IMG/VR virus record: IMGVR_UViG_3300037067_014938 | Coordinates: 17,435-81,434 of that record | Strand: one strand, 5' to 3' | DNA length: 64,000 nt | Source of the DNA: a virus | Taxonomy: Duplodnaviria; Heunggongvirae; Uroviricota; Caudoviricetes | Part shown: positions 19,067-50,349 of the stretch, piece after piece | Layout of the letters: every line of letters starts with the position of its first letter | How positions within the stretch are numbered: position 1 is the first letter of the stretch | Position numbers and translations under genes: made by a program | The notes under the pieces: generated by a model | Databases searched by the model: none | The model's input: the letters and a program-made list of their open reading frames with translations, nothing else | What the model was told of the DNA's origin: nothing

Positions 19067-19099
19067 AACAGAAATTTTCCAAAAAGGTTCCCAATTTCT

Positions 19100-31170: not shown

Positions 31171-31171
31171 G

Positions 31172-34171: not shown

Positions 34172-34175
34172 TTTT

Positions 34176-34436
34176 ATGATATATATTAGAATAGCACATA
34201 AAGCAGTTGATATTAGTGAAAATAAAGATTTTTGTGTTGATCTATATTGTCAAGATGATACAAAAACGTTATACGACATTGGTACAAAAGGTAGAATTAG
34301 TTGTGATATACCTCGTGTTATAAAATATGGCAATGAATTATTAGCTTCAAGAAAAACATTCTTTAATGAATTTCCAACTTTATATAGTGTTAAATTATTA
34401 CTTTTAATACTGGCAGAATTTCCTCTTATTCAATAA
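34176..34436 (+). CDS. Small paralog-family protein (C-terminus VKLLLLILAEFPLIQ)
   Basis: N-terminus MIYIRIA and the C-terminal LLxILAE motif. Confidence 0.45.
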   Translation: MIYIRIAHKAVDISENKDFCVDLYCQDDTKTLYDIGTKGRISCDIPRVIKYGNELLASRKTFFNEFPTLYSVKLLLLILAEFPLIQ

Positions 34437-34833
34437 TCGGAGCTTCAAATGAGAATGTTCTTATTACGATACTTTGATAATTTTATGCCTTGGGTAACTG
34501 CTGGAATATTCATAAATTATGGAAATGCTTTATGGAATAATTTTTCTTATTCTTTATTAGCCATTTGGTTTATTGCAATCGGAAGTGGATTACTTGGTTT
34601 TAGTCTAGCTATTATATTAATTTCAAATGATTTAAAGCTTGTTTACTTCATTTATAAAAAACAAAAAAAGTTACAAAAATGAAAATTCAAATCATTTTTA
34701 ATAATATAAGAATAACTGGAAACGAAGGGCCGGGTTGGGTAGAACTCCCTGGAAATATTGCTTTTGGCACATCTCTTAGTCAATATATAGAATATTTGAT
34801 GAGTTCACATCAGGAGGAAATTTTGCCTGCACA

Positions 34834-36153
34834 ATGTATAAAAGTTCTTTTATGGATATTAGGAGAAAAATAATGCCACATGTTTTATATAAGAATAATC
34901 CAACTGCCTATAGAAAAAGCAACCAAGTGTTCATTAATAAAGTACCTATTGCCTATATTTGGGCAGATTTTAACACCCTCGAACAATCGGCAAAGAATCA
35001 AATTTATGAAATGATAAAGCATCCCAGACTTTGGCCTCATTTAGCCATAATGCCTGATGTCCATGCGGGAATAGGTGCTACAATTGGTTCTGTAATTCCC
35101 TTACGTAATGCAATTATTCCATCTGCCGTTGGAACTGACATTGGTTGTGGAGTAATGGCTCTTAAAACAAATCTTACGGTAAACGAAGTAACTCCTAAAT
35201 TTAAAGAAATTCATATGGGGATTAAGAGAAGTATTCCGCTTGGATTTAATGATCGAAATATGAATCCAAGAAATCAAAAATTAATGAAAGAATTAGTTCC
35301 AGATGTTTTACACGCTCAGATTTTTGATTACGAGCAAAATAAGGAACTTTGGAATAGCCATAAGGGAATCGCTCCGCAAATGGGAACATTAGGTAGTGGA
35401 AATCATTTTATAGAGTTGTGCAAAGATAAAGATAATGTGGTATGGGCTGTTGTTCATTCCGGTTCTAGAAATATTGGTTATAAGATTGCAGAAAGATATA
35501 CTAAATTAGCAAAAGAAGAAGGTCATTCTTTTGGTGATTTGTCATATTTTGATGCTGACTCGGAAAGAGGCGAAGAATATTTAAAGCATATGCGATTTGC
35601 GGTGGATTTTGCTTATTATAATAGAAAATTTATGATTCATGAAATAACTTTAATGTTTAAGTCCTTATTTCCAAATCTCATAGGTCAGATAGAATTAAAT
35701 ATTCCGCATAATTTTGTAGCAGAAGAGTTTCATTATGGAGAATGGCTTTGGATTCATAGAAAAGGTGCTGTAAAAGTGCCTAATCTTTTAGTTCCACATT
35801 GGTTTACGAGAGGAATTATCCCAGGGTCAATGGGTTCTTCAACTTATATTGTAGAGGGTAGAGGAAATGAAGAGTCCTTTAATTCTTGCTCTCATGGTGC
35901 TGGTAGAGTTATGTCTCGTTCTATGGCCAAAGGGAAAGTCAATAGGAAAACAGGGGAGCAAAAAACCGAAGGTGTATTAAAACTGGAAGATTTTAAAGCA
36001 AAAATGGCAGGAATTTATTCTGAGGATATTGATTCGCAACATATAGATGAATCTCCAGATGCGTATAAGGATATAGATAAGGTAATGGAAAATCAGAAAG
36101 AATTAGTCGTAATTCTGGAAAAATTAGAACCTATATTTAATATTAAGGGATGA
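34834..36153 (+). CDS. rtcB: RtcB-family 3'-phosphate RNA ligase
   Basis: DIGCGVMA, GSGNHFIEL, HSGSRNIG, PHNFV and SCSHGAGR motifs in RtcB order. 439 aa. Confidence 0.8.
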   Translation: MYKSSFMDIRRKIMPHVLYKNNPTAYRKSNQVFINKVPIAYIWADFNTLEQSAKNQIYEMIKHPRLWPHLAIMPDVHAGIGATIGSVIPLRNAIIPSAVGTDIGCGVMALKTNLTVNEVTPKFKEIHMGIKRSIPLGFNDRNMNPRNQKLMKELVPDVLHAQIFDYEQNKELWNSHKGIAPQMGTLGSGNHFIELCKDKDNVVWAVVHSGSRNIGYKIAERYTKLAKEEGHSFGDLSYFDADSERGEEYLKHMRFAVDFAYYNRKFMIHEITLMFKSLFPNLIGQIELNIPHNFVAEEFHYGEWLWIHRKGAVKVPNLLVPHWFTRGIIPGSMGSSTYIVEGRGNEESFNSCSHGAGRVMSRSMAKGKVNRKTGEQKTEGVLKLEDFKAKMAGIYSEDIDSQHIDESPDAYKDIDKVMENQKELVVILEKLEPIFNIKG

Positions 36154-36154
36154 T

Positions 36155-36799
36155 ATGTTTCATTTAACAAGTTATAATCTTCATCATGCTGGAGTAGATA
36201 TTATTTATAATGATGATAATTCTGACTGTGATTGTGAGGATATTTGTCGTTGTAGCAGAATAGTAAATGAACAAGTTGAATCTGTAGATTTGAATGAAAT
36301 TGTTCAAAATCTTTGTGAGAAAGATCCTGTTATTATCAAATATTGTGTTGATAGAATATTAAGAATATTTAAAGCGTACAATCCTGAAAATTACGATATT
36401 TCTATAGAAGGGGGATATTACGGGCAAGAAATAGGTAAGGTAACTCTTACAAATGAAGCGGCTAAATTAATAGATTGTGCGTTTGATAATTTATTGGCAT
36501 TAAATACGGATAAAGAAAAGTTACTTTTCGTGCTTGGTTTAGAATATGCATTTATTACTTCCTTATTAAGGAGGGGAAAATTTGAAGTTAAAGAAATTTC
36601 ATTAAAAGAGATATCTGAAAAAAGTAACAAATTAGTTATTAAAAAAGTTGAAAAATACGATTTAATACCAGATATCCCCATAGGCATTGTAACACAAAGA
36701 AATAATGAGTATATTATCATAGATGGGCATCATAGGATTATCTCTTTGCAACAGATGAAAAATCCTCCTAAAATAATAAAGGTATATTATGTCAAATGA
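36155..36799 (+). CDS. Hypothetical protein with C-terminal ParB/sulfiredoxin-like DGHHR motif
   Basis: C-terminal segment IIIDGHHRIISLQQ. Confidence 0.35.
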   Translation: MFHLTSYNLHHAGVDIIYNDDNSDCDCEDICRCSRIVNEQVESVDLNEIVQNLCEKDPVIIKYCVDRILRIFKAYNPENYDISIEGGYYGQEIGKVTLTNEAAKLIDCAFDNLLALNTDKEKLLFVLGLEYAFITSLLRRGKFEVKEISLKEISEKSNKLVIKKVEKYDLIPDIPIGIVTQRNNEYIIIDGHHRIISLQQMKNPPKIIKVYYVK

Positions 36800-37133
36800 A
36801 ATCAAGAGTATTATTGATGAAATTGCTAAAAAAGCTGGTGAATCTATAAGAGCAGGAATGGCTTTGCCTCAAGATGAGTTTTATGAAGAAGAAGAAAAAC
36901 AATTAACCGAAGCAGTAAAACCATTTATAGAAGAAGCTTTTAATACCGGACGAAATATTACGGATTTATGTTCAGAAGTAACTGTTAGGGGTGGAGTAGC
37001 TTATGTAGAAAAAGTAGCCGTTGGAACTGAAGTTAAATTAACTGACTACGACGGGGAACAAATTGGAGAACCAACTGTTACATATGTGTATGGAAATAAA
37101 AATGATGAAGTAGTTTTATTGAGAGAAGAATGA
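36789..37133 (+). CDS. Hypothetical acidic protein
   Basis: 114-aa ORF overlapping its neighbours by a few nt. Confidence 0.4.
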   Translation: MSNEIKSIIDEIAKKAGESIRAGMALPQDEFYEEEEKQLTEAVKPFIEEAFNTGRNITDLCSEVTVRGGVAYVEKVAVGTEVKLTDYDGEQIGEPTVTYVYGNKNDEVVLLREE

Positions 37134-37310
37134 CTATTCAAGTTAAAAATGCCCATTTATATATGAGTGGGTTAGATCAATCTACGGAATATGTTATTCG
37201 TAATGAGGACCATTGTATCGGCGTAGCAAGGATAAATTATTCTTATGAAGTTACCATAGTTTATATATCAGCATTATTAATATTTATTTTGAGTAATAGA
37301 AAGGAAAAAA

Positions 37311-37571
37311 ATGTCATCATTTAATACTCCAGTTTATGTATCATGCTCTGTTTGTGGACCAAAATTATTCGTCTTTACTTCTAACGGAAAAAGAAAAATT
37401 AATTATACTTTTATGGCAACTGTAAAGGAATGGGATTTTGGAATTCCAGAATGTCCACATTGTAGAGGAACTAAAAATAATATAACTTTAATAGAACGTA
37501 ACAATAATGGTGTTATAACAAAAGAAATAGTTTCAACACCACGTTTAAAATTGGAGGCAATAGAATGTTAA
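37311..37571 (+). CDS. Zinc-ribbon protein
   Basis: CSVCGP...CPHCRG. Confidence 0.4.
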   Translation: MSSFNTPVYVSCSVCGPKLFVFTSNGKRKINYTFMATVKEWDFGIPECPHCRGTKNNITLIERNNNGVITKEIVSTPRLKLEAIEC

Positions 37572-37834
37572 TAGAAAGTTTTTTTGATTTAGTCAATAAG
37601 CATAAAGGCAAAGAAGTTAATATCCATTACAAAAATGGAACAAAAGACACGGGGAAATTAGTCCTTGATAAGTCCTCCGACGGTCAAGATATCGACATTA
37701 CCGTTAATGGTGGAACATATCCTAAAACATTGTATAGAAAAACTTATGATACTTGTTTAGGTGAGACGGAAATAACAGTTAGAAGATACCTTCAAATCAC
37801 TAAAATAATACCACGTAAAACAAAAAAGGAGAAA

Positions 37835-37978
37835 TGATGGAAGAGAACGAAGTAAAAACTTCCAGCATTAATGTCTCAGGTTTCACCGAAAAGGAGAAAC
37901 AAGACATTAAGATCGCGGCAGTAAAGGCCAATAAAACTCTTGGCCAGTATTGTCACGACATGCTGGTAAAGGTCTAAA
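37835..37978 (+). CDS. Small ribbon-helix-helix-like protein (47 aa)
   Basis: Read by hand as MMEENEVKTSSINVSGFTEKEKQDIKIAAVKANKTLGQYCHDMLVKV, which resembles a CopG/Arc-type strand-helix-helix. RBS AAGGAG upstream. Confidence 0.3.
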
Positions 37979-37990
37979 CAATCGCCGTCT

Positions 37991-38021
37991 CCCGTCCTTT
38001 TTAGGGGCCTTAACTGGCCCC
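37991..38021 (+). terminator. Hairpin TTTTT-AGGGGCC-TTAACT-GGCCCCT-AAAAA (possible bidirectional terminator)
   Basis: Perfect 7-bp GC stem flanked by T-run and A-run. Confidence 0.4.
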
Positions 38022-38030
38022 TAAAAATAT

Positions 38031-38219
38031 ATGCAAATTATTGTTTTATTTAATTCAATTAATATTATTGAAGATGGATTTTATGTTTCTTGTACTAAAT
38101 CAACCTGTAACTTATTAACAGAATTACCTTGGTACAAGGTACATTGGGATAGATTAAATTCAGAACGTATAACAGTAGTTAAAATTTTACTTTTGATATT
38201 AAGCGATCGAAATGATTAA
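38031..38219 (+). CDS. Small paralog-family protein (C-terminus VKILLLILSDRND)
   Basis: N-terminus MQIIVLF and the C-terminal motif. Its stop overlaps the next gene's start (ATGA). Confidence 0.45.
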   Translation: MQIIVLFNSINIIEDGFYVSCTKSTCNLLTELPWYKVHWDRLNSERITVVKILLLILSDRND

Positions 38220-38595
38220 AGCAATAAAATTAAAAGGAATCCAAGTTACTTCGGAGTTATTTGTTTCTAATTCTTCTCAGATTAAACCTTGTATACAAGA
38301 AGTGGTTTATGCTGATGACTCAAAAATAAAATCATTCAATAATTTAAAAATTATTTCATTCAAAGATAAACGATTCATTGCATTATTTTCGGATATTACA
38401 CCCAATGGCATATGGATTTATCTTGATAAAGATTATAAACGTACTACAAATTTATGGACATTACTTTGTTTTAAAAGAAAAGAATATCACAAAATATACA
38501 TCTTTTTTAGTTTGGCTTTTAGACAGATGGTTTACAAAGAAACTGAATCTCTTAATAAGATTCCAGTTCAAATTACACTATCATTTAAATTATGA
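38212..38595 (+). CDS. Hypothetical protein
   Basis: 127-aa ORF. Confidence 0.4.
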   Translation: MIKAIKLKGIQVTSELFVSNSSQIKPCIQEVVYADDSKIKSFNNLKIISFKDKRFIALFSDITPNGIWIYLDKDYKRTTNLWTLLCFKRKEYHKIYIFFSLAFRQMVYKETESLNKIPVQITLSFKL

Positions 38596-38795
38596 TATAT
38601 TATACTACTGATAGACCTGAAGGATTATACATTAAACATAAAAAATATAAATATTTTTATACTAGCATAAAGGATACAAAATATTGGATTAAACGTTATA
38701 TTAAATTTTCTGGCATCTCTTCAATTGATATACAAACTAATATTAATTCAGCTGTAATTGCATTATTAGTATTTATATTATTAGAAAGGAAATAA
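38592..38795 (+). CDS. Small paralog-family protein (C-terminus IALLVFILLERK)
   Basis: C-terminal motif. Confidence 0.45.
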   Translation: MIYYTTDRPEGLYIKHKKYKYFYTSIKDTKYWIKRYIKFSGISSIDIQTNINSAVIALLVFILLERK

Positions 38796-38796
38796 A

Positions 38797-39150
38797 ATGA
38801 TTGCTAAAGAAAATATTTGTCCACGATGCGGTTCTGAGAATACAGGACTTAGAGAACACGGGGCAAATAAATATGCTGTTTCATCGTCTACAATAGACAT
38901 TGATAGATATCAGGAAGAGTGGTTCTGTTATGATTGTAATGAACCATTCTTTCAATTATTTGCAGCTATATTCGTAGGACAATCTTTAATCTCTTATACA
39001 GGAAAAGATATCATTTGGAGTGACTCTGTTCAAGAAAAACAAAATATATGTTTATCTTTATTGAACAGAATTAAAATGGGAGATTCTAAAGAAGCAGAAG
39101 AATTACTTGTAAAGTTACAGAAGATTTTTGAAAAAGAAGTTAAAGTTTGA
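38797..39150 (+). CDS. Zinc-ribbon protein
   Basis: CPRCGSEN...CYDCNEPF. Confidence 0.4.
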   Translation: MIAKENICPRCGSENTGLREHGANKYAVSSSTIDIDRYQEEWFCYDCNEPFFQLFAAIFVGQSLISYTGKDIIWSDSVQEKQNICLSLLNRIKMGDSKEAEELLVKLQKIFEKEVKV

Positions 39151-39173
39151 ACCATGGTGCTTTACTCCTATAA

Positions 39174-39458
39174 ATGGGTGGTAATAAGAAATTATTGCCA
39201 CCCCCTATAAATATGCATCTTGAAGTTATAAAATATTATAGATTTCACAGTAAACTAGAAGCTAGTAAGTACTGTTTAGTAATAAGTACTCCTTTTTTAT
39301 GTTATAGTCGTGTAATATTTCATATTTTAACAGGAAATGGAAGAGAATCAAGTCCGAGTAGAAATCCTTTTAATTATATGCGGAAACGACCCAATGAGAA
39401 AGAACGTAATACTGTTTCTATAATAGCTTGTTTACTTTTTGTGTTGGCAGAGAGATAA
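39174..39458 (+). CDS. Small paralog-family protein (C-terminus IIACLLFVLAER)
   Basis: C-terminal motif. Confidence 0.4.
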   Translation: MGGNKKLLPPPINMHLEVIKYYRFHSKLEASKYCLVISTPFLCYSRVIFHILTGNGRESSPSRNPFNYMRKRPNEKERNTVSIIACLLFVLAER

Positions 39459-39653
39459 GTTTATGTTAGACAGAATATCCAAAAAACTCGACTTCTTCAT
39501 AATTATAAAATACTTTAATTTATTAACAGGTTTTACATTTATTGGATTTTTTGCATACTATTTATGGATTTTTAATCCAAAAGATGGTATAACTTGTATT
39601 AAAATATTATTTATACTTCCTTTATTTTTATTTGCAGCATACTTTGCTTTTAA

Positions 39654-39935
39654 ATGGTACTTTCATTTGAGGAAAAGATGTTAGTAGTATATCATGAAGT
39701 ACCAGGATGTTTTACCGTAGATGACCGGTTAGTTTTTGATACTAATATAGGTAATAGGTGTGACCATAAAATACCTCTGGGTAAAATGCTTTCTCCAATA
39801 GAATATCTTCACAAGTTTAAGACAAGTTACCCAAGAGATTTTATATGTGTAAAAGCAATACTTTTATTTATTTTATATAATCGGCGTGTAGCTCAGTTGG
39901 TTCAGAGCACTCGGCCTGGGACCGAGAGGTCGTAA
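39654..39935 (+). CDS. Small paralog-family protein (C-terminus AILLFILYNRR); runs into tRNA-Pro
   Basis: C-terminal motif is immediately followed by the tRNA-Pro 5' end. The ORF tail past the motif is probably not real coding. Confidence 0.4.
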   Translation: MVLSFEEKMLVVYHEVPGCFTVDDRLVFDTNIGNRCDHKIPLGKMLSPIEYLHKFKTSYPRDFICVKAILLFILYNRRVAQLVQSTRPGTERS

Positions 39936-39956
39936 GTTCGAATCTTACCACGCCGA
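39882..39956 (+). tRNA. tRNA-Pro (anticodon UGG), loop CCTGGGA with C33
   Basis: Acceptor CGGCGTG/CACGCCG, D-arm GCTC-AGTTGGTTCA-GAGC, anticodon stem CTCGG/CCGAG, T-arm GTAAG-TTCGAAT-CTTAC. Confidence 0.65.
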
Positions 39957-39957
39957 T

Positions 39958-40176
39958 ATGAGAATAACAATTTATACACGTTTATTAGAAATAAATTTAG
40001 ATGGTCAACTTGTATTTTATATTCCAACTGGAAATGGAACAGAATTAAATGATAGTTGTAATCCAATAAATTTTCTTAGGGCATCTTCTGAATGTTCAGG
40101 AGAGCACATTTCAAGAGCAATTGTAGCATTCTTATTGTTTCTTTTAGCAGAGGATGATTATGTTGGGAAAAAATAA
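39958..40176 (+). CDS. Small paralog-family protein (C-terminus AIVAFLLFLLAEDDYVGKK)
   Basis: N-terminus MRITIY and the C-terminal motif. Confidence 0.45.
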   Translation: MRITIYTRLLEINLDGQLVFYIPTGNGTELNDSCNPINFLRASSECSGEHISRAIVAFLLFLLAEDDYVGKK

Positions 40177-40618
40177 TAAAATGAGTTTGCAAGAAATTTT
40201 AGCAAAGGCTAAGGAATTTAATCCTCTTTGTGAATTTGACACTTCATATTATATCTTATTATATCTAATATTAAGGAAGATGGATTGTTCAGTAAAAGAT
40301 GCCATACATCTTACATTGGGAGAGGCTCGAAGATCAGAAACACCAATAGATATAGATTATCTTAAAGCATTTCATGGAGCAACGCCTATTTTTATAAAAG
40401 AATCTATGGAAGCAGGTATAACTTTCATAAGTTCTTGTCCTTTACCCGATCCCAAAGCTATAGAAAATTTAATTAAAAAGTATGGAAAACCTAAAAGTGC
40501 CATATTGAATTTAGTATGGCTTGAAGTAGGTTTGAATCTATCACATAATGGTAGAATTGATCCACAAAAAGAATATATTAAATTAATGTCAACTATAATC
40601 AAGAAATCCGGAGGTTAA
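40154..40618 (+). CDS. Hypothetical protein sharing the exact 42-bp IDIDYLKAFHGATP segment with 30019..30306
   Basis: Identical DNA at 40346..40387. Confidence 0.4.
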   Translation: MIMLGKNNKMSLQEILAKAKEFNPLCEFDTSYYILLYLILRKMDCSVKDAIHLTLGEARRSETPIDIDYLKAFHGATPIFIKESMEAGITFISSCPLPDPKAIENLIKKYGKPKSAILNLVWLEVGLNLSHNGRIDPQKEYIKLMSTIIKKSGG

Positions 40619-40622
40619 AGTA

Positions 40623-42758: not shown

Positions 42759-44089
42759 TGAACATTAACCAGGTCCCAGAGATAATCAACATCTGTTATA
42801 AAGCCAAGAGAGTACCCTTCTTTTGGGGTATGGCCGGTGTTGGAAAAAGTGAAATGGTTGCTCAAAGCACCCAAGAATTGAGTAAAACTATTGGTCACAA
42901 ATTCGACTTGGTAGATTTACGTTTGGGATGTATGGAAGTTGGTGATCTTATTGGGTTACCAAGAGACAGGGAAGTCAGTCCTGGGATTTGGGCAACAATA
43001 TGGACTCGTCCTCAATGGTTTCCATTTGATCCATTGAAATGTCCGAATTGTGGCCATATTAAAATGGCTACATCTGAGCCTCATCGGGATGGCGAAATAT
43101 GCGAATATAAGGGCTGTAAAGGAAAAATGAAATGGGAACCTTCCTTTGGAATCGTTTTTCTTGATGAGTTTAATAGAGCTGGAACTACAGATGTATTACA
43201 AGCCATGTTCCAATTCGTTTTGGGCAACAAAGAAATAGTAGATGACAAAATGGTAATTAGAAGGCATCTGCATACCCATTTGTTACCTGATGGTTGGAGC
43301 GTTATTTGTGCGGGAAATCCTGATACTGCGGATTATAATGTTCAGGGTTTAGATGCTGCCATGTTAGACAGATTAATTCACATAGTGATAGACTTGGAAC
43401 CCGATCTGGTCTTGAGATGGCAAAAAGAAAACTTAGATTGCAAAGAAATTTATGAATTTTGCAAGACTATGCCAGCAGTTTTAGGAAAGAATATTCCTAT
43501 TAAATTACCTATAACTCCTTCTCCAAGAAGTTGGGATATCATCAACACCCTGATTAGCAACATGACACATGACCAAATAAAATCTTTGGGTGCTGAATTA
43601 TTTGGAGGGATTATTGGTCCCCAAAATGCTAACAGTTTTATTAAATACCTCCAAGATTCTTTGTTAAGACCTCTCGACGCGGAAAGTGTCTTAAATGCAA
43701 AGAATCCGGATGAGATTGAAGAAATGCTTAAGAAGTTCATAAATCCGGATAAGCAACATTTGGAATTGCTTGATCTGACTACTGAAAAAATTGTAGAAAA
43801 GTTGTCGAGTGATACCTTTCATGCAACAAAAAGGCATGCGGCAAACTTTGTTGAATATCTGAGATTCTTGCCACATGATATGACGCTGCAAGCTTTCACA
43901 GAGTTCATGAAAAATTGTAAGATTGAAGACAATTGTATGAAAATTGTTGAAGCCTTGCAAAATATGAAAGAAGACACTCTCATAATGAACATGCTGTTAT
44001 CCGCCGGAGCTAAAAAAGAAGAAATTTTACCAGCGGTAGAAAAGATCAAAGAAATCAAAAAGGCAGCCAGCGTAAGGGAAAAGGAGTAA
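42758..44089 (+). CDS. MoxR-like AAA+ ATPase with a zinc-ribbon insertion
   Basis: Walker A GMAGVGKSE, Walker B IVFLDEFNRAG (the DEFNRA signature of MoxR/CbbQ/RavA). CPNCGH...CEYKGCKG is inserted between them. Confidence 0.75.
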   Translation: MNINQVPEIINICYKAKRVPFFWGMAGVGKSEMVAQSTQELSKTIGHKFDLVDLRLGCMEVGDLIGLPRDREVSPGIWATIWTRPQWFPFDPLKCPNCGHIKMATSEPHRDGEICEYKGCKGKMKWEPSFGIVFLDEFNRAGTTDVLQAMFQFVLGNKEIVDDKMVIRRHLHTHLLPDGWSVICAGNPDTADYNVQGLDAAMLDRLIHIVIDLEPDLVLRWQKENLDCKEIYEFCKTMPAVLGKNIPIKLPITPSPRSWDIINTLISNMTHDQIKSLGAELFGGIIGPQNANSFIKYLQDSLLRPLDAESVLNAKNPDEIEEMLKKFINPDKQHLELLDLTTEKIVEKLSSDTFHATKRHAANFVEYLRFLPHDMTLQAFTEFMKNCKIEDNCMKIVEALQNMKEDTLIMNMLLSAGAKKEEILPAVEKIKEIKKAASVREKE

Positions 44090-44093
44090 TTAT

Positions 44094-45383
44094 ATGAGCT
44101 TTTTAAGAAACCTTTTTAGTAATAAATTCTACAAAGGTTTAACTGAGTTAAGCTCCAAATACCCCTTTTATGGTGCATTGGCCTCACAATGCACCATAGA
44201 ATCAAATGAGCAAATAAAAACAATCTCTGTACAAGAAAAAGAAGGAGAAATAACAATAACTTATTGTTTGAGTTGGTTTGAAAAACTAACTCCTGAACAA
44301 GCAAGTGAAACCATCCGTCATTCTCTTACCCATATACTATTTAATCACTTGGAAATAGCCAATGAAAAAGAGAATGAAAATGTGCGTCTTGAAGTAGCAA
44401 AAGATTTGGCTGTAAATTCTTACATGCAAAAGAATTTACTTCCTCAAGGATTTCTTACTCCAGATGCATTTGGATGGCCAACAGGGCTTTCTACACAAGA
44501 ATATTACCATTTACTTCAAAAAATAAAATTTGGGCAGGATAAAGATAAGGGGAAAGAACAAGGACAGGGTGGAGGGCAAGGACAAGGGCAAGGTGAAAGA
44601 CAGGGCGAAGAACAAGGTGAAGGACAAGGGCAAGGTGAAGGACAGGGCGAAGGACAACAAGGTGATAAACCAGGAGATAACCATGGAAAAATGAGCCGAA
44701 AAAGCTCTCAAGCGGCCATGCAACAAAAAATAAGTGGTATGACTCAACGAGCGGTTCAAAAAGGTGGTAGAACAGGTTCTCCTTCCGGGTCTTTAATGGA
44801 TAAGTTATTTGAATTTCTTTTGGGAACTGGAGAGTTACCTTGGAATATTATTTTAAGAAGATTTGTAGCTAATTCAGCTAAAGCTTTAAGAGAACCAACA
44901 TGGAAACGCCCTAACAGAAGATTTGGGGAATTCCAGAAAGGCAATAAGAAAAAACCTATATTAAGAATTTTCTTAGCTGTTGATGAATCTGGTTCCGTTG
45001 GAGATAGAGAATGGAAAACCTTTTTAGATGAAATAGAAGGAATTCTATTGTCTAAAAAAGGAGAATTAATTGTATGCAAGTTTACCACAAAAGTAGAAGA
45101 TACCTTTATATATGATAAGAGATCAAGTTCTAAAATACGTGTGATGCAACGGTATAATGGAGGAACTTTATTTCAACCATTTCTCGATGAGGCAAAAAAA
45201 CATCGTGTTGACTGCGTAATTTGTTTTACTGATGGTTATAACGCCGACGATAATAATATCTCTTATCCTAATTGGGACAGAGTATTATGGGTATTAACAC
45301 CAAATCACAATAAACCAACTGTTGGAAAATCTATTATTTTAACAGACTTAAGTAAAGAAATGAATAATACGATGCAAATATGA
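44094..45383 (+). CDS. VWA-domain protein (DUF2201-like partner of MoxR) with N-terminal metallopeptidase-like domain and Gly/Gln/Glu-rich linker
   Basis: MIDAS motif FLAVDESGSVGD. N-terminal IRHSLTHILFNH is an HExxH-like motif lacking the Glu. Low-complexity linker GKEQGQGGGQGQGQGERQGEEQGEGQGQGEGQGEGQQ. Confidence 0.7.
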   Translation: MSFLRNLFSNKFYKGLTELSSKYPFYGALASQCTIESNEQIKTISVQEKEGEITITYCLSWFEKLTPEQASETIRHSLTHILFNHLEIANEKENENVRLEVAKDLAVNSYMQKNLLPQGFLTPDAFGWPTGLSTQEYYHLLQKIKFGQDKDKGKEQGQGGGQGQGQGERQGEEQGEGQGQGEGQGEGQQGDKPGDNHGKMSRKSSQAAMQQKISGMTQRAVQKGGRTGSPSGSLMDKLFEFLLGTGELPWNIILRRFVANSAKALREPTWKRPNRRFGEFQKGNKKKPILRIFLAVDESGSVGDREWKTFLDEIEGILLSKKGELIVCKFTTKVEDTFIYDKRSSSKIRVMQRYNGGTLFQPFLDEAKKHRVDCVICFTDGYNADDNNISYPNWDRVLWVLTPNHNKPTVGKSIILTDLSKEMNNTMQI

Positions 45384-45539
45384 AAATTTAGTATATATTT
45401 CAGGAAAGCATTATAGTGGTTGTCCTGTAAAAGAACTTAAAACTTTAATACAAGAAAGATATCCTGATATATATGTAGATGATGATATGGCATATTTTGT
45501 GTGTTTATTATTAGCTATTTTAGGAGAAAGAAAAAAATG
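45364..45539 (+). CDS. Small paralog-family protein (C-terminus MAYFVCLLLAILGERKK); no canonical ATG near the frame start
   Basis: Read by hand. The frame is open from 45364. The C-terminal motif overlaps the RBS/start of the next gene. Confidence 0.3.
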
Positions 45540-45878
45540 AAAATGTTTTATCAGACAGGACAAAAAGTTGAAGATGGTGATCTAACGCGAGTAAAAACTA
45601 TACACAATGTCTTCAATTTACTTTTAGTTAAAGTAATAGATGGAAAATATTTTGTTCATATCCTTTGTGAAAAAGAACTTCTTCCATTAGAAACCTCACC
45701 ATATTTTTCTCCCATTAAAGAAGGTTTTGCAAAGTTAGTTAATATACGGTTGATTTTCAGAAAACAGGAATTAAATATACTGGCTACGACACAAGTGGAG
45801 TTAATTAAAGAAAGGCTTAGTAAACAATTCAGACTTGAACCATCAAAAGAAATATTGAATAAATGGCACAATTCATAA
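45535..45878 (+). CDS. Hypothetical protein
   Basis: Starts at MKMFYQTGQ. Track ORF is 45501..45878. Confidence 0.4.
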
Positions 45879-47038
45879 TTTATATTTCAATTGTTATAAT
45901 AATTTCGGTTGCATTATATTACATATTTCACAATTTTAACAACATTAAATTAGAGGACTTTCATGAGACAAATTTAGTGATTCAATCTGATGAGTATTTA
46001 ATTCCAACTCTTTCTGAACCCTATTTAACTTTAGATAAGTATACAGGACAAGCAAAGACTGTTGAGTATTTAAAAGGGCATATTGAATTAGCTAAGTCCC
46101 AAGGAAAGTCACTACCCCATACGATACTTTGGGGAAGTGGTGGACTTGGAAAATCCACATTAGTTAGAGCTATTGCTAATCATATTGGAGGAAGATTTTT
46201 TGAAATTATTCCTGCAAACCTACGTAACACTAAAGAACTTTTTGCAGTTTTATTCAAAAAGCAGTGTGTTCAATGTGGCAGATTAAATCCATTTAGTGCA
46301 AACAAATGTCTTAATTGTAAGACAGATATTTCTTCAAGATTTACTCCGATACATCAATTTCAAGATTATGATATCTTATTTTTTGAAGAGTGTCACGGAT
46401 TAAAAAGTGAGATTGAAGAAGCAATATATTCATTAATGCAAGATGGATATATAATGATAAGATATCTTGGAGTTGACCAAAAAGTATTTTTTCCTAAGAT
46501 TACTATTATGGGTGCAACCACTCAATTAGGAGATTTAACTAAACCATTTCGAGATAGATTTGGATTACAATTACATTTAATTCCTTATACTCAAGAGGAA
46601 ATGAAAGTAATTATAACTCAATATGTGATGCATAAGAATTATTCAATTATAGATGATGCTTTAGAATTAACTGCTAAAATATCACATGGTGTTCCAAGAA
46701 TAGCTAAAAAATATATTATAGATGCCATGACAATTTTGACAAAAGATGATAAAGTTATTACTTCAGTACAAATCAATAAGATATTAATTTTATTAAACAT
46801 AAATGAAGATGGTTTAAATGAATTACATATAGCTGGAATGAAAATAATATATAAACGAATGTTAGCCTCTAAGAATGGCGGAGCTGGAGTTAGTTCTATC
46901 GCGTCCGCTGTGGGTATTCCGGTTGAAATATGGCAAGAAGTCTATGAACCAGCATTGGTTTATTTGGGTTATTTAGAATACGGCAGTCGAGGAAGAAGAT
47001 TAAGTGGTAACGCAATCACAAAATACTTCTCCAAGTAA
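45863..47038 (+). CDS. ruvB: RuvB-like Holliday junction branch-migration ATPase with zinc-ribbon insertion and N-terminal hydrophobic segment
   Basis: Walker A WGSGGLGKSTL, Walker B YDILFFEECHGL, sensor IMGATTQLGDLTKPFRDRFGL and arginine finger HGVPRIAKKY all match RuvB. CVQCGR...CLNCK is inserted between Walker A and B. Confidence 0.75.
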   Translation: MAQFIIYISIVIIISVALYYIFHNFNNIKLEDFHETNLVIQSDEYLIPTLSEPYLTLDKYTGQAKTVEYLKGHIELAKSQGKSLPHTILWGSGGLGKSTLVRAIANHIGGRFFEIIPANLRNTKELFAVLFKKQCVQCGRLNPFSANKCLNCKTDISSRFTPIHQFQDYDILFFEECHGLKSEIEEAIYSLMQDGYIMIRYLGVDQKVFFPKITIMGATTQLGDLTKPFRDRFGLQLHLIPYTQEEMKVIITQYVMHKNYSIIDDALELTAKISHGVPRIAKKYIIDAMTILTKDDKVITSVQINKILILLNINEDGLNELHIAGMKIIYKRMLASKNGGAGVSSIASAVGIPVEIWQEVYEPALVYLGYLEYGSRGRRLSGNAITKYFSK

Positions 47039-47373
47039 AGAATTAATAATATATTTTATATATTTTTTATACCGTGGTTATTCTGGGTATGTTTATATTA
47101 ATTATAAATATTTGGAATATACAATAAAATATGTTTCTTCCAAAACAGTTCGCCATGATAAACGCAGCGGACATAATCTTATTAATATTCTAATAAAATT
47201 ATGCAAAGATATCTAATTATATTGTTACTTATACAGCTATATTATAATAAAATTAATATAAAATCAGGAATATTAGTGAGAGTAAAATGTTATTTAGAGC
47301 CAAATTGTATAAATTGTCCATGCAGATCACACACAATTATTAGACACATTTTAACTCAAAGGAAGTAATTAGT

Positions 47374-47643
47374 ATGTTGGTAGAACAACGCGTCAATCGT
47401 ACTGAGGCTGTACAAGAAATTTTGGCCTCACATGGAAGAATGTTCACGGTAGTCTGGAAAACCAAAGGTGGTAAAACCAGACGCCTGAACGGAAAGTTGG
47501 CAAAAAGAACTTACCAACGAAAAGTTCAGGACAAAATCTATGGGTATGTCACTCTGATGATTCCTGGAGGACAATTCAGAAGAGTGGATACCCGGACGAT
47601 CAGTAAACTTTCAATCAATCAGAGGGTGCTTCGTGTCGTGTAA
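47374..47643 (+). CDS. Hypothetical basic protein
   Basis: RBS AAAGGAAG upstream. A hairpin terminator follows. Confidence 0.45.
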   Translation: MLVEQRVNRTEAVQEILASHGRMFTVVWKTKGGKTRRLNGKLAKRTYQRKVQDKIYGYVTLMIPGGQFRRVDTRTISKLSINQRVLRVV

Positions 47644-47646
47644 GCC

Positions 47647-47672
47647 AAGGGGGGAAAAATCCCCCCTTATCT
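47647..47672 (+). terminator. Rho-independent terminator GGGGGGA-AAA-TCCCCCC followed by a T-rich tract
   Basis: Perfect G/C hairpin of the same style as 6999..7021. Confidence 0.55.
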
Positions 47673-48023
47673 TAATTTTAGTAGCTTTCACATTAAATTT
47701 TCGTTATTTTGAGGAACCTATTTTTATGGAATTAAAAGAAACAGAGTTATGTCTTATTATTAAATATTATAAATCAATCTTTTTACCAAAAAGCCCAAAG
47801 GGTTGTGATTGTCACAATTGTAGAAAATATAAGGCTAAATTGAAAAAACTATGGACAAAAATATACTAATTTACATTCTTTTAACTCAGATCAGTCAAGG
47901 TGGGTCTTTTAACAATACAATTTTTTACCTAACATATTCTCTTCCAGAAAGATGTTATTATTGTAATGGTGAAAGATGTAAATATTTTCAAATTAAAGAT
48001 GTTGAGAATGAAAAGGAAAAATT

Positions 48024-48599
48024 ATGGCACTTTATTACAAAGCATTAGAAAAAACCATTAGTAACGAGGGTAATTATTCAGACCACCCAAATGACAAAGG
48101 TGGAGAAACTTATAAAGGGATATCCAGAATCTTTAATCCAGATTGGGAAGGTTGGTCAATTGTTGATTCAGAAAAACATAATGCTAACTTCCCCGATTGT
48201 TTGCAGTTTGATGGAGACCTTGAAAGGATGGTTTCAGATTTTTATGAAACTAACTTCTGGGAACCTCTTCACGGAGAAGAAATTGAGGATCAGGATTTGG
48301 CCAATAAATTATTTGATATATCGGTAAATACTGGTTTAACCGATGGGATTGTTATTCTACAACACGCTTTAATGGCGTTAAATACAAACGGAGAATTATA
48401 TCCTGAGATTATAATGGCAGATGGAAAATTTGGACCTAAAACCTTAGCCGCCATTAAGTCTCTTGAAATGAGACGTGAAACTCGATATTTAATCAAAGCA
48501 ATGGGTATTCTGCAAGGATACGGGTACATTATGAATGCTATGCATAATATAAATCAAACTGTTTTTATTCGCGGATGGCTTAATCGTATAAGTCTATGA
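48024..48599 (+). CDS. GH108-family lysozyme with C-terminal peptidoglycan-binding domain (endolysin candidate)
   Basis: N-terminal SNEGNYSDHPNDKGGETYKGI (GH108 EGGY...DxGG.T..GI motif) and C-terminal DGKFGPKTLAAIK (PG_binding_3-like). Confidence 0.65.
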   Translation: MALYYKALEKTISNEGNYSDHPNDKGGETYKGISRIFNPDWEGWSIVDSEKHNANFPDCLQFDGDLERMVSDFYETNFWEPLHGEEIEDQDLANKLFDISVNTGLTDGIVILQHALMALNTNGELYPEIIMADGKFGPKTLAAIKSLEMRRETRYLIKAMGILQGYGYIMNAMHNINQTVFIRGWLNRISL

Positions 48600-48811
48600 C
48601 AATAGGTATTAATAAAAATGGTGTACATTTATTTAATCCACATAGTAGGGGGTTTGATAGTAAAGGATTTATTGGATCACAATTTGATCTTCATAGATAT
48701 ATTTTTTATATTATAAATGAATCAATGGATGCAAAAAATGGAATGTGGTTTAGTCGATATAAAGAAATAGCAGTAACTAAAATATTATTATCTATTTTAG
48801 CAGCAAGATGA
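48596..48811 (+). CDS. Small paralog-family protein (C-terminus VTKILLSILAAR)
   Basis: C-terminal motif. Stop overlaps the next start (ATGA). Confidence 0.45.
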   Translation: MTIGINKNGVHLFNPHSRGFDSKGFIGSQFDLHRYIFYIINESMDAKNGMWFSRYKEIAVTKILLSILAAR

Positions 48812-49050
48812 AAATATTAATAGATCAAAATCAAATTATAATTAAAAACCCTCCTAACCTTTGTATTATAGAGGATGATAGATTTTTACAATCATTAAAT
48901 TTGTATATAAATTTTATAGGTTGTGGACCTTCTTCAATATTTAAAGATCACGAAGAATATCCAGTTGTTATTATAATTAAAATATTATTATTAATAATAG
49001 GACAAAGAAATGAAAAAATACTTCGCAGTAGGAAATCACAAATTAAGTAA
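48808..49050 (+). CDS. Small paralog-family protein (C-terminal region IKILLLIIGQRNEK)
   Basis: N-terminus MKILID and the C-terminal motif. Confidence 0.45.
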   Translation: MKILIDQNQIIIKNPPNLCIIEDDRFLQSLNLYINFIGCGPSSIFKDHEEYPVVIIIKILLLIIGQRNEKILRSRKSQIK

Positions 49051-49609
49051 AAAAATAATGATCTTTAATATGACTCCGGCAGCTACTTGTCCAAGTAGAG
49101 CACTTGGGTTGTGCCAGTTGCACAACCCGGATTTTTGTTATGCTATGAAGGCTGAAAAAATGTATCCGAAATGTCTCCCACATCGTATGGAACAACAAGA
49201 ATTATGGGATTCTTTATCGGCTGAGGATTTTGTTGAATTATTCTTAAGAGAGCGTGGAAAAAAAGATGTTAAATATTTAAGATTTAATGAATCAGGTGAC
49301 TTTGTTAATCAAGATAGCTTAGACAAAGCTGAAAAAGTTGCGGAACTTTTAATAGAAAAAGGAGTTACAGTATATTGTTATACGGCCAGAAAAGACTTAG
49401 ATTATTCTAGTATAAAGCATTTGATAATTAATGGTTCTGGCTGGATGGAAGATAATGAATGTGATGTTGTATATTTTAATAATGATTTATTAGATAAAGG
49501 AAGTTTTGCTTGTCCAAAGAGTATCGGAAAAAGCAAAGAAGAATGTGGTGAGACTTGTACGGCCTGTATGCAAAAAACAGGCAAAAAAATATTATTTTTG
49601 ATTCATTAA
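49010..49609 (+). CDS. Cys-rich hypothetical protein (possible Gp37/Gp68-DUF5131-like)
   Basis: N-terminal TPAATCPSRALGLCQLHNPDFCYA Cys cluster. Assignment is tentative. Confidence 0.35.
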   Translation: MKKYFAVGNHKLSKKIMIFNMTPAATCPSRALGLCQLHNPDFCYAMKAEKMYPKCLPHRMEQQELWDSLSAEDFVELFLRERGKKDVKYLRFNESGDFVNQDSLDKAEKVAELLIEKGVTVYCYTARKDLDYSSIKHLIINGSGWMEDNECDVVYFNNDLLDKGSFACPKSIGKSKEECGETCTACMQKTGKKILFLIH

Positions 49610-49777
49610 AATGAAAACTTGTAAAATAAAAGTTATTCAACCGGGCACAGTTTTATCAGTTACTTATAATAATGAAGTAACAGCTATCAGAATTAGCGAA
49701 GGTATTATTTTCCCTGGTCCCTTAGGTGAAGATTTCAGGAACGATAGATCATGTAATTATTATACGGCACGGGTAAA

Positions 49778-49993
49778 ATGAAAGTAATAATTAATACTCA
49801 AATTTATCACGAAGAAAACACAATAGAAATATGCTATAATATAGAAATATGCTATAATGGTGAAGTATCATATATCGATGAAGAAGAGATAATTCCCAAT
49901 GTAGACTATTGCTTTAATATAGGTGATGAAGTTGATGATTATTTTTATGCAAGAATAATCAGAATATTATTACTAACATTGGCATACAAATGA
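49778..49993 (+). CDS. Small paralog-family protein (C-terminus RIIRILLLTLAYK)
   Basis: N-terminus MKVIIN and the C-terminal motif. Confidence 0.45.
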   Translation: MKVIINTQIYHEENTIEICYNIEICYNGEVSYIDEEEIIPNVDYCFNIGDEVDDYFYARIIRILLLTLAYK

Positions 49994-50349
49994 TAGAAAT
50001 AAAAGCTAAATGCTGTGGAACTTGTAGTAACTGTATCCTTCTCCAAATCCAAGCGGAATCTCCACCCGCTCCTGTTTTAGGAGAATTTAAAATCGGTGCT
50101 TATATTCAAGATTGTTATGCTACTCAAAGTATATGCTATAATTTCAAGAATAAAAGATGGGAATATTATGAACGGGATGAGCATGACGATGATTTTCGTC
50201 CAAAGTTTTATAATACACAATTATTTAATTTAATTCAGAAACTAAAAGGAGCAGAAAAATTTTCTGACACTTATCCTGCTTTACCAACAGGATTAATAGT
50301 CACAATATTATTATTTATCTTAGTAAGGAGGAGTGGTCGAGTGGATTAA
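49990..50349 (+). CDS. Paralog-family protein (C-terminus VTILLFILVRRSG) running into tRNA-Ser
   Basis: N-terminus MIEIKA. The C-terminal motif directly abuts the tRNA-Ser 5' end. Confidence 0.4.
   Translation: MIEIKAKCCGTCSNCILLQIQAESPPAPVLGEFKIGAYIQDCYATQSICYNFKNKRWEYYERDEHDDDFRPKFYNTQLFNLIQKLKGAEKFSDTYPALPTGLIVTILLFILVRRSGRVD

What the first reader, a model, noticed from the sequence alone, without database searches (positions are those of the whole stretch)
34176..50349. Expanded family of small proteins sharing a C-terminal (I/L)LL(F/L)ILA(E/D)R tail, arranged in tandem arrays on the plus strand
At least 11 plus-strand ORFs of 60-120 aa (34176, 38031, 38592, 39174, 39654, 39958, 45364, 48596, 48808, 49778, 49990) end in a near-identical hydrophobic tail, e.g. 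KILLLILSDR, ALLVFILLER, CLLFVLAER, AILLFILYNRR, FLLFLLAEDD, LLLAILGER, KILLSILAAR, KILLLIIGQR, RILLLTLAYK, TILLFILVRR, KLLLLILAEF. Most begin with a short beta-strand-like M(K/R/Q)I(I/V)I... and their middles are unrelated. Codons for the motif differ between copies (tta/ctt/ttg, gca/gct), so conservation is at the peptide level. The motif always sits at the very 3' end and overlaps the RBS/start of the next gene, and twice it overlaps the 5' end of a tRNA (Pro, Ser). This is a hypervariable multigene family with conserved termini. Possibilities include a packaging/targeting or protease-recognition signal (the tail ends in L-A-E, like the LxE-type prohead-protease sites of T4) or diversified small effectors. 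No such family is known to me.
Basis: seen in the sequence. Interest (0 to 1): 0.85.

Follow-up and report, generated by a model that had tools for sequence, protein, structure and literature searches.

The report
Phage small-protein family, shared hydrophobic end-helix
An uncultivated phage carries about 25 copies of a previously undescribed family of small proteins whose shared "tail" is the buried last helix of a common mini-fold, not a DNA signal or a known targeting tag; the family is real but is an ordinary kind of phage accessory-gene expansion.

Summary
A hydrophobic peptide of the form (K/R)-x-L-L-x-I-L-(A/S/G)-(E/D)-(R/K) closes many 60-120 aa ORFs. I count 14 strict plus-strand sites, against 0.76 expected by chance. 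The family is larger than reported, about 25 copies. It includes a minus-strand tandem array at 18.7-20.7 kb and three or four disrupted copies.

The conservation is at the peptide level:
- T is invariant at codon position 2, and third positions vary most.
- No DNA match occurs out of frame or between genes.
- In strain orthologs the tail has dN 0.08 against dS 0.36.

The middles are not unrelated. The copies share an N-terminal MxIxI strand, a central LxxYIxYL block and the tail. AlphaFold gives the same three-strand, two-helix topology for two members at modest confidence, and the tail is helix 2. The final A/G-E-R codons also serve as the Shine-Dalgarno site of the next gene.

The apolar stretch is 7-13 residues, too short for a membrane span. 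Pfam, PHROGs, NCBIfam, PDB and 1.84 billion representative proteins give no relative outside this phage lineage.

Best reading: a lineage-specific, birth-and-death family of small accessory proteins built on one scaffold. Its function is unknown and is probably host takeover or counter-defence. Interest is moderate to low.

The parts
34176..34436 (+). Family member B, 86 aa, tail SVKLLLLILAEFPLIQ*
   Evidence: Orthologs in L086 and L087 keep the tail; L087 ends ILAEK*.
34679..34873 (+). Family member C, 64 aa, tail CIKVLLWILGEK*. Not in the finding's list.
   Evidence: AF2 model: strands at 2-6, 9-13 and 20-23, helices at 29-42 and 45-62, pLDDT 68. Ortholog P0061/L086.
37130..37324 (+). Family member D, 64 aa, tail ISALLIFILSNRKEKNVII*. 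Not in the finding's list.
38031..38219 (+). Family member E, 62 aa, tail VVKILLLILSDRND*
38592..38795 (+). Family member F, 67 aa, tail NSAVIALLVFILLERK*
39174..39458 (+). Family member G, 94 aa, tail SIIACLLFVLAER*. Paralog of I.
   Evidence: blastp G against I: 43% over 49 aa, E 1.5e-9. No homolog outside this phage among 5.8e9 proteins.
39654..39935 (+). Family member H. Tail CVKAILLFILYNR abuts tRNA-Pro (39881-39957), and the ORF's stop codon lies inside the tRNA.
39958..40176 (+). Family member I, 72 aa, tail AIVAFLLFLLAEDDYVGKK*
45385..45540 (+). Disrupted member J, tail AYFVCLLLAILGERKK*. It has no in-frame start. ATG AAA ATT TAG at 45380 is in another frame.
   Evidence: The intact 56-aa ortholog in L010 (450-620) ends AYYVCILLNILAKRK*. 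The window copy has a 19-bp deletion.
48596..48811 (+). Family member K, 71 aa, tail AVTKILLSILAAR*
48808..49050 (+). Family member L, 80 aa, tail IIIKILLLIIGQRNEK.... The ORF runs 40 nt into the GP88-like gene, which starts at 49010.
49778..49993 (+). Family member M, 71 aa, tail RIIRILLLTLAYK*
49990..50349 (+). Family member N, 119 aa. Tail LIVTILLFILVRR abuts tRNA-Ser (50327-50414), and the stop codon lies inside the tRNA.
50421..50747 (+). Weaker member O, 108 aa, tail TIAVVAILFKIFVYRNANTN*
   Evidence: (PWM 16.4).
30715..30939 (+). Weaker member P, 74 aa, tail QLIVALLLSIYANY*
33095..33202 (+). Remnant A: tail GKLLLLILAEK* in a 35-codon TTG ORF just after tRNA-Lys
   Evidence: PWM 27.3.
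28530..28824 (+). Frameshifted member. The body is ORF 28530-28775. The tail FFQIELDIIKLLLLMLASYE* (28762-28824) is in another frame, and removing one T from a T run restores a single ORF.
19648..19839 (-). Minus-strand member, 63 aa, tail MILVKIFLCILSGRG*
   Evidence: AF2 model: strands at 4-8, 11-15 and 21-24, helices at 29-39 and 41-60, pLDDT 75. Orthologs P0059 and P0064.
20074..20310 (-). Minus-strand member, 78 aa, tail NKASIFRTLLLILANRDDYNRNKK*
   Evidence: Against the L088 ortholog, FRTLLLILA is kept across 6 synonymous changes in 13 codons.
20307..20552 (-). Minus-strand member, 81 aa, tail NSAGVIITLLEILADRTE*
   Evidence: P0066.
20498..20683 (-). Minus-strand member, 61 aa, tail VWLINTLLQILAARHLEQ*
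18701..20099 (-). Four weaker tandem members: 19830-20099 (FIIYILMRALCK*), 19345-19647 (GVLICILLQCVRGQSLQ*), 19100-19387 (QVAFILRLLNKN*) and 18701-19066 (LAMITLMLYIMAGDYSAKM*)
   Evidence: Orthologs in L088 and L089.
20921..21332 (-). Probable frameshifted member. The tail GYIVRLLLIILEEYD* (20989-20921) is out of frame with ORF 21332-20925.

Best explanation
These are real, translated genes of one lineage-specific paralogous family. Each encodes a small protein, most likely soluble, that folds as three N-terminal beta-strands followed by two alpha-helices.

The conserved 'tail' is the second helix. It has a basic residue, then 7-8 consecutive aliphatic residues (LLxIL core), then polar or charged capping residues. 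Together with the conserved LxxYIxYL helix 1 it forms the hydrophobic core of the mini-domain, and by inference a self-association surface. The strands and loops are free to vary.

In this phage the protein stops right after helix 2. The genome is tightly packed, so the last two or three codons (GCA/GGA GAR AGR) also serve as the Shine-Dalgarno site of the next gene. That explains the A/G-E-R/K ending.

The family grew by tandem duplication in the variable slots between conserved replication, RNA-repair and tRNA genes. It turns over by birth and death: some copies are frameshifted and some are strain-specific.

Shown: the reality of the family, peptide-level selection, the secondary-structure topology at modest confidence, and the SD overlap. 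Inferred: the core or oligomer role of the helix, and an accessory role (host takeover or counter-defence) in which the variable sheet is the binding surface.
For: Enrichment:
- 14 terminal sites are observed against 0.76 expected.

Peptide-level conservation:
- T is invariant at codon position 2 of six successive codons, and third positions are the least conserved.
- DNA identity at first and second codon positions is reproduced by resampling codons from the amino-acid sequences and the phage's codon usage. Third-position identity is slightly above that expectation (see evidence against).
- A PWM scan of both strands finds no out-of-frame or intergenic match above shuffle noise. It does recover more in-frame C-terminal copies on the minus strand.
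- In orthologs from strain variants (L086-L089), the tail has dN 0.082, dS 0.364 and dN/dS 0.22. The rest has dN 0.217, dS 0.588 and dN/dS 0.37. Indels are in frame.
- Counting differing codons, the tail has 19 synonymous and 19 non-synonymous, and the rest 77 and 196 (Fisher p = 0.009).

Common fold:
- The 22-member alignment has three conserved blocks.
- Two AF2 models give the same three-strand, two-helix topology. The tail region is among the most confident parts, with pLDDT block means of 78-82.

Not a membrane span:
- Apolar runs are 7-13 residues.
- The maximum 19-residue Kyte-Doolittle mean (KD19) is below 1.6 in 14 of 22 members.
- Genuine small membrane proteins in the same window reach 1.85-2.36.

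SD overlap:
- The next start codon lies between 5 nt inside and 27 nt after the core. In most copies the start or tRNA lies from 5 nt inside the core to 13 nt after it, even where the ORF runs on.

Turnover:
- Three frameshifted copies and strain-specific extra copies are present.
Against: - No experiment or expression data exist.
- Third-position identity among copies is slightly above the codon-usage expectation (0.43 against 0.36, p about 0.01). Synonymous divergence in the tail is somewhat lower than in the rest (pS 0.29 against 0.41). A minor DNA- or RNA-level contribution is therefore not excluded.
- Three copies keep a recognisable tail although it is out of frame with its body.
- A helix with two fully aliphatic turns in a 60-aa protein could also be a membrane-interacting element.
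- The function is pure inference from context.
Confidence: 0.6

Rival explanations
1. The proteins are tail-anchored or membrane-associated small effectors. The C-terminal hydrophobic helix inserts into, or lies on, the host membrane and tethers a variable cytoplasmic N-terminal domain, for example for superinfection exclusion or envelope remodelling.
For: - The hydrophobic helix sits at the extreme C-terminus and is followed by a few charged residues, which is the tail-anchor topology.
- A few members reach a KD19 of 1.6 or more: P30715 2.17, N49990 2.03 and O50421 1.81.
- Neighbouring genes include several genuine small membrane proteins.
- pTM is low, so packing of the helix onto the sheet is not established.
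Against: - In most members the uninterrupted apolar run is only 7-13 residues and is bounded by K/R and E/D.
- KD19 is below 1.6 in 14 of 22 members, whereas true membrane proteins of the same phage score 1.85-2.36.
- Helix 1 and the N-terminal strands are co-conserved with the tail, as expected for a folded core.
Confidence: 0.2
2. The tail is a shared recognition signal. It could be a docking peptide for a common partner (chaperone, protease or degron, virion packaging, or an LxE-type maturation site), making the family a set of diversified cargoes with one address label.
For: - The tail is the most conserved segment across very divergent paralogs.
- Many copies carry L-(A/G/S)-E near the end, which resembles (L/I)xE prohead-protease sites (resemblance recalled from knowledge of T4, not tested).
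- The bodies evolve faster than the tail.
Against: - The E is absent in many copies: ILSNR, ILYNR, ILAAR, IIGQR, TLAYK, ILVRR and ILANR.
- The E-R/K codons are accounted for by the downstream SD.
- The T4 capsid-targeting signals are N-terminal.
- The genes lie among replication, RNA-repair and tRNA genes, not head genes.
- The tails end in charged residues, not apolar ones, unlike SsrA-type degrons.
- A second block (LxxYIxYL) and the N-terminal strands are also conserved, which a simple tag does not need.
Confidence: 0.1
3. The motif is a DNA- or RNA-level element for the downstream gene or for genome plasticity: a promoter, a U-rich translational enhancer or coupling signal, an RNA-processing site, or a recombination hotspot. 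On this reading the peptide similarity is a by-product.
For: - The motif sits at a nearly fixed distance upstream of the next start codon or tRNA, even where the ORF continues past it.
- Upstream T content is 0.48 after tails against 0.31 for other genes.
- Third-position identity is slightly in excess.
- Tails persist in three frameshifted copies.
Against: - The information content has period 3, with position 2 invariant and position 3 least conserved.
- Every match above noise is in frame at an ORF end, and none is intergenic or out of frame with its own short reading frame.
- Orthologs accumulate synonymous changes in the tail (pS 0.29) while amino acids are kept, for example 6 synonymous changes in 13 codons with FRTLLLILA intact.
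- Sigma-70-like promoter matches are not enriched (107 against 98 +/- 9) and do not coincide with the sites.
- Other genes of the same operons lack such an upstream tract.
Confidence: 0.05

Closest known systems
Small-ORF arrays at syntenic positions in related uncultivated phages (L003/L006 = Ga0272443_10000191, L005 = SRR26786782 contig, L012 = SDBT01003348.1)
   Same: - These contigs share the backbone: RtcB, RNA ligase, AAA/VWA pair, RuvB-like, GP88, primase.
- The same variable slots are filled with 55-100 aa ORFs.
- Those ORFs start MKIxI and contain one short, fully hydrophobic helix. Examples are KNNLFLLFLVIL and NSTFVLFLLCGL in L003, INNPAFTLLLLL in L005, and PYxxxLxxxxxRxxLFLxxL in about 40 tandem copies in L012.
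   Different: - In those phages the helix is internal and is followed by 15-40 more residues.
- No sequence-level homology to the window family could be shown. hhalign gave probability 0.2%, and HMM searches in both directions found nothing at E up to 1-10.
- The relationship is an inference from synteny and resemblance only.
T4 internal proteins with a capsid-targeting sequence (hypervariable IP loci); from general knowledge of T4
   Same: Small, fast-evolving phage proteins share only a short conserved terminal peptide that contains an L-x-E-like element.
   Different: - The T4 signal is N-terminal. It is cleaved by the prohead protease, and the genes belong to the head-assembly programme.
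- Here the peptide is a C-terminal helix, other blocks are conserved as well, and E is often absent.
- The context is replication and RNA repair, and neither cleavage nor packaging was tested.
PeSL (promoter-early stem-loop) cassettes and hyperplastic regions of T4-type phages (Arbiol et al. 2010; recalled, not re-read)
   Same: Variable slots between conserved core genes are filled with small ORFs, and a repeated short motif sits at gene boundaries.
   Different: - PeSL is an intergenic DNA element made of promoter hexamers and a hairpin.
- Here the repeat is translated and shows codon-periodic conservation and amino-acid-level purifying selection.
- No promoter or hairpin signature is present.
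Tail-anchored membrane proteins
   Same: A hydrophobic helix at the extreme C-terminus is followed by a few polar residues.
   Different: The apolar stretch is 7-13 residues and KD19 is mostly below 1.6, too short for a bilayer span.

Membership tests
Any curated protein family (Pfam-A, PHROGs v4, NCBIfam, PDB sequences) | Significant profile match | tested here: not met
   There is no hit below E about 0.04 for any member, and none reaches a curated cut-off. The PDB profile search found 0 hits at E up to 10. The L003 and L012 look-alikes also have no hits.
Known structural folds (PDB, BFVD) | Significant structural neighbour of the AF2 model | tested here: not met
Tail-anchored membrane proteins | A single C-terminal transmembrane segment of about 18-20 or more apolar residues | tested here: not met
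   The longest apolar run is 5-15 residues, typically 7-13. KD19 is below 1.6 in 14 of 22 members. Control membrane proteins of the window score 1.85-2.36.
Tail-anchored membrane proteins | Membrane localisation that depends on the tail | not testable with these tools
   This needs fractionation or imaging.
T4-type capsid-targeted internal proteins / prohead-protease substrates | An N-terminal targeting peptide ending in (L/I)xE, cleaved by the prohead protease | tested here: not met
   The conserved peptide is C-terminal, and the N-termini (MxIxI) have no LxE. The E of the tail is missing in at least 7 copies.
T4-type capsid-targeted internal proteins / prohead-protease substrates | Presence in virions and proteolytic processing | not testable with these tools
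   The phage is uncultivated and no proteome is available. The window holds no head or protease genes.
DNA-level repeated regulatory cassettes (PeSL-like promoters, terminators) | Conservation at the DNA level independent of reading frame, in intergenic positions | tested here: not met
   Conservation has period 3. All PWM hits are in frame inside ORF ends. Synonymous divergence in the tail is pS 0.29.
DNA-level repeated regulatory cassettes (PeSL-like promoters, terminators) | Promoter hexamers and/or a stem-loop at the repeat | tested here: not met
   Sigma-70-like sites are not enriched (107 against 97.9 +/- 9.2). One of the listed sites overlaps a motif (34410-34437); 47 weaker sites were not shown. 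Terminator-like hairpins do not fall at the motif. Phage-specific promoters were not modelled.
Superfamily with the L003/L005/L012 small-ORF arrays | Statistically supported sequence or profile similarity | tested here: not met
   hhalign of A2 against A3 gave probability 0.2%. hmmsearch of the window family against 4018 ORFs of 80 loci gave no hit at E up to 1. The reverse HMMs gave no hit at E up to 10.
Superfamily with the L003/L005/L012 small-ORF arrays | Same genomic slots and the same architecture (N-terminal strands plus one short all-hydrophobic helix) | tested here: met
   The gene order is syntenic, and the look-alike ORFs lie after VWA, after RuvB-like and around GP88. Structures of those proteins could not be predicted because of tool restrictions.

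The most novel reading that the evidence does not exclude
The shared C-terminal helix is a common address or assembly module. All of the roughly 25 diversified N-terminal domains would dock through it onto one partner: each other as hetero-oligomers, a host membrane or complex, or a phage delivery or packaging machine. The family would then be a combinatorial effector library with a single targeting helix. The syntenic arrays in related phages (up to about 40 copies in L012) would be divergent versions of the same system, a widespread but unrecognised phage effector scaffold.
Probability: 0.12. Interest if true: 0.7.

Novelty: new member of a known kind. Interest (0 to 1): 0.35.

Why it matters
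The family has no relative in Pfam, PHROGs, NCBIfam or PDB. Outside its own phage lineage it has no relative among 1.84 billion representative proteins. It is therefore a new sequence family and possibly a new small fold.

Expanded, fast-evolving families of small early or accessory proteins are where phage anti-defence and host-takeover functions have repeatedly been found. This set of about 25 copies on one scaffold, with strain-level gain and loss, is a reasonable candidate pool for such screens.

It is also a clean worked example of how to separate a translated motif from a DNA signal when the motif overlaps the next gene's ribosome-binding site.

Lineage-specific orphan (ORFan) paralog expansions are nonetheless common in large phage genomes. 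Nothing here challenges current understanding.

Tried and rejected
1. A DNA search of the phage collection with 4.3 kb of the region gave only a 116-bp weak hit to an unannotated 462-kb phage.
2. A viral-contig scan with the RuvB-like protein gave no relative.
3. A concatenated 1125-aa query of 14 members to the search for homologous proteins returned nothing, although the members are in the collection. That search was wasted.
4. A profile of paralogs G and I against 5.8e9 proteins gave only self hits.
5. The family profile against 1.84e9 representatives gave only own-lineage proteins and two repeat-protein false positives, P0058 and P0069.
6. hhalign and HMM cross-searches between the window family and the look-alike arrays of L003, L005 and L012 gave no signal. 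I therefore do not claim homology.
8. The sigma-70 promoter and terminator scan showed no enrichment and no coincidence with the motif.
9. The idea of a U-rich enhancer needed by all genes is rejected, because other genes lack the tract.
10. The transmembrane interpretation is rejected for most members on segment length.
11. One literature search for comparable families found nothing relevant.

Full report
CONTEXT

The window has about 32% G+C. It is the replication, nucleotide-metabolism and RNA-repair part of a large uncultivated phage.
- Its genes include family-A DNA polymerase, a sigma-70-like factor, DnaB, primase, RecA, an SbcC-like ATPase, ThyX, UDG and RNR.
- They also include RtcB, an RNA ligase, a MoxR-like AAA/DUF2201-VWA pair, a RuvB-like ATPase, a GH108 lysozyme and a GP88-like protein.
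- There are 11 intact tRNA genes.
- The same sequence occurs in ENA assembly ERZ27247358 and run SRR6484325. The longest public contig is 117 kb.
- The closest annotated phage record gives only a 116-bp weak match.

A six-frame peptide search finds 14 plus-strand matches between 33173 and 50305. Each lies 26 codons or fewer from a stop, in a frame open for at least 44 codons. Markov-2 simulated sequences give 0.76 on average, with a maximum of 5 in 200.

A DNA weight matrix built from these sites was scanned over both strands.
- It recovers them and adds a minus-strand tandem array: 19648-19839, 20074-20310, 20307-20552 and 20498-20683.
- Weaker neighbours extend that array down to 18701.
- It also adds two tails that are out of frame with their upstream bodies, at 28762-28824 and 20989-20921.

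The listed '45364' copy has no start codon. An intact 56-aa ortholog exists in a related contig (L010, RuvB-like 83% identical), and the window copy has a 19-bp deletion.

The family has about 25 copies in 64 kb, on both strands, and three or four of them are disrupted.

PEPTIDE OR DNA?

Four independent tests favour the peptide.
1. Information content along the aligned DNA has period 3. T is invariant at the second position of six successive codons, and third positions are the least conserved.
2. Every weight-matrix hit above shuffle noise is read in the LLxIL frame at the end of a reading frame. None is intergenic.
3. Codons were resampled from the amino-acid sequences with the phage's own codon usage. 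This reproduces the observed identity at positions 1 and 2 and nearly at position 3 (0.36 expected, 0.43 observed, p about 0.01).
4. Orthologs from strain variants (L086-L089) show the tail's 13 codons with dN 0.082 and dS 0.364. The rest of the proteins have dN 0.217 and dS 0.588. Counting differing codons gives 19 synonymous and 19 non-synonymous in the tail against 77 and 196 in the rest (Fisher p = 0.009). Indels are in frame.

One pair keeps FRTLLLILA through six synonymous changes. Sigma-70-like promoter matches are not enriched and do not coincide with the sites. Other plus-strand genes lack a comparable U-rich tract upstream.

A small DNA-level residue remains possible. Third-position identity is slightly in excess, and pS is somewhat lower in the tail.

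WHAT THE TAIL IS

A 22-member alignment shows three conserved blocks:
- N-terminal MxIxI followed by a second xIxI strand;
- a central LxxYIxYL block, with variants NPINFL, SPIEYL and RYIKF;
- the terminal hydrophobic stretch.

G39174 and I39958 are unambiguous paralogs. AlphaFold2 with the paralog alignment gives the same topology for two members.
- For 34679-34873 the strands are at 2-6, 9-13 and 20-23 and the helices at 29-42 and 45-62, with pLDDT 68.
- For 19648-19839 the strands are at 4-8, 11-15 and 21-24 and the helices at 29-39 and 41-60, with pLDDT 75.
- The central block forms helix 1 and the tail forms helix 2. The tail region is among the most confident parts.

The uninterrupted apolar run is 7-13 residues and is bounded by K/R and E/D. 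The best 19-residue Kyte-Doolittle mean (KD19) is below 1.6 in 14 of 22 members. Genuine small membrane proteins of the same window score 1.85-2.36. I therefore read the tail as the buried core helix of a small fold, and perhaps an oligomer interface, rather than a membrane span or a tag.

THE A/G-E-R/K ENDING

The next start codon or tRNA begins between 5 nt inside and 27 nt after the nine-codon core. In most copies the start or tRNA lies from 5 nt inside the core to 13 nt after it, even where the ORF runs on (L48808, I39958, D37130, 20074-20310). The purine-rich codons (GCAGAAAGA, GGAGAAAAA, GTAAGGAGG) are Shine-Dalgarno sequences. This part of the 'motif' is shaped jointly by helix capping and by the downstream ribosome-binding site.

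DISTRIBUTION

No member matches Pfam, PHROGs, NCBIfam or PDB sequences. Each member is a singleton cluster in the 15-billion-protein collection.

The family profile was searched against 1.84 billion representatives. It finds only proteins of this phage and close strain variants (P0059, P0061, P0064, P0066, P0068) plus two repeat-protein false positives.

Strain variants carry extra members absent from the window (L087 836-1051; L088 3-116 and 212-379), which shows gain and loss.

More distant phages share the backbone (RuvB-like 52-58% identical; L003, L005, L012) and fill the same slots with small ORFs.
- These ORFs start MKIxI and contain one short all-hydrophobic helix.
- There the helix is internal, and L012 has about 40 tandem copies.
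- Profile comparisons in both directions find no significant similarity.
- A common origin is therefore plausible from synteny but not demonstrated.

One RuvB-like relative is labelled Candidatus Dojkabacteria in NCBI. This is at most a hint about the host.

MECHANISM AND FUNCTION

Shown:
- The genes are translated and under purifying selection.
- The secondary-structure plan is shared.
- The last helix is conserved, and its end overlaps the next gene's RBS.
- The family turns over by birth and death.

Inferred: helix 2, with helix 1, forms the hydrophobic core or a self-association surface, and the variable sheet provides binding specificity. The location is in variable slots among replication, RNA-repair and tRNA genes. 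Together with the rapid turnover, this suggests accessory roles such as host takeover or counter-defence.

Rivals are a membrane anchor (0.2), a shared address, degron or protease signal (0.1) and a DNA or RNA element (0.05).

VERDICT

The finding is a genuine new sequence family with a neat explanation for its striking tail. It belongs to a familiar category, lineage-specific expansions of small phage accessory proteins, and its function remains unknown. Interest is 0.35.

Noticed in passing
window 30261-30567 (+): A tRNA-Leu(UAA) gene is interrupted by a 220-nt group I intron (30297-30516) at the U34/A35 position of the anticodon. The intron scores 62.7 bits against Rfam RF00028 (E 1.4e-15). 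In-silico splicing yields a tRNA-Leu(taa) that ARAGORN accepts. Both ARAGORN and the Rfam gathering run miss it on the intact window. Relatives L003 and L005 have an intron-less tRNA-Leu(taa).
   Followed up: yes
window 39654-39935 and 49990-50349 (+): Family ORFs H and N have their stop codons inside tRNA-Pro and tRNA-Ser. RNase P cleavage of a polycistronic transcript would leave these mRNAs without a stop codon, possibly leading to tmRNA tagging or processing-dependent expression.
   Followed up: no
window 28530-28824 (+), 20921-21332 (-), 45380-45540 (+): Three family copies have tails out of frame with their bodies. One is fixed by removing a single T from a T run, and one has a 19-bp deletion relative to L010. 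They are either pseudogenes from rapid turnover or homopolymer assembly errors.
   Followed up: partly
L012 6231-17490 (SDBT01003348.1): This stretch holds about 40 consecutive 70-100 aa ORFs of look-alike families, for example PYxxxLxxxxxRxxLFLxxL and YMDSYTxxGNILxNFRLGM. It flanks the RuvB-like and GP88 genes in a phage contig of 28% GC and is a far larger expansion than in the window. No Pfam or PHROG hits were found.
   Followed up: partly
window 45863-47038 (+) and alignment A1: The RuvB-like AAA+ protein has a hydrophobic N-terminal segment and four invariant cysteines (C135, C138, C149, C152). These suggest a zinc-ribbon insertion, conserved across 19 aligned relatives from uncultivated phage contigs. 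One relative is labelled Candidatus Dojkabacteria.
   Followed up: no
window 27937-36153 (+): RtcB (34834-36153), a T4-Rnl-like RNA ligase (28992-29870; annotated by analogy with the RNA_ligase Pfam hit of its L003/L005 counterparts) and six tRNA genes, including the intron-containing one, are clustered together. This may be a tRNA-repair or anti-anticodon-nuclease module.
   Followed up: no
window 39174-39458 (+): JGI names family member G 'acyl-ACP thioesterase'. No profile supports this, and it is probably a spurious annotation.
   Followed up: partly
window 47647-47668 (+): A strong terminator-like hairpin, AAGGGGGGAAAAATCCCCCCTT followed by a T-rich tail, lies just after the conserved 89-aa ORF 47374-47643.
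   Followed up: no
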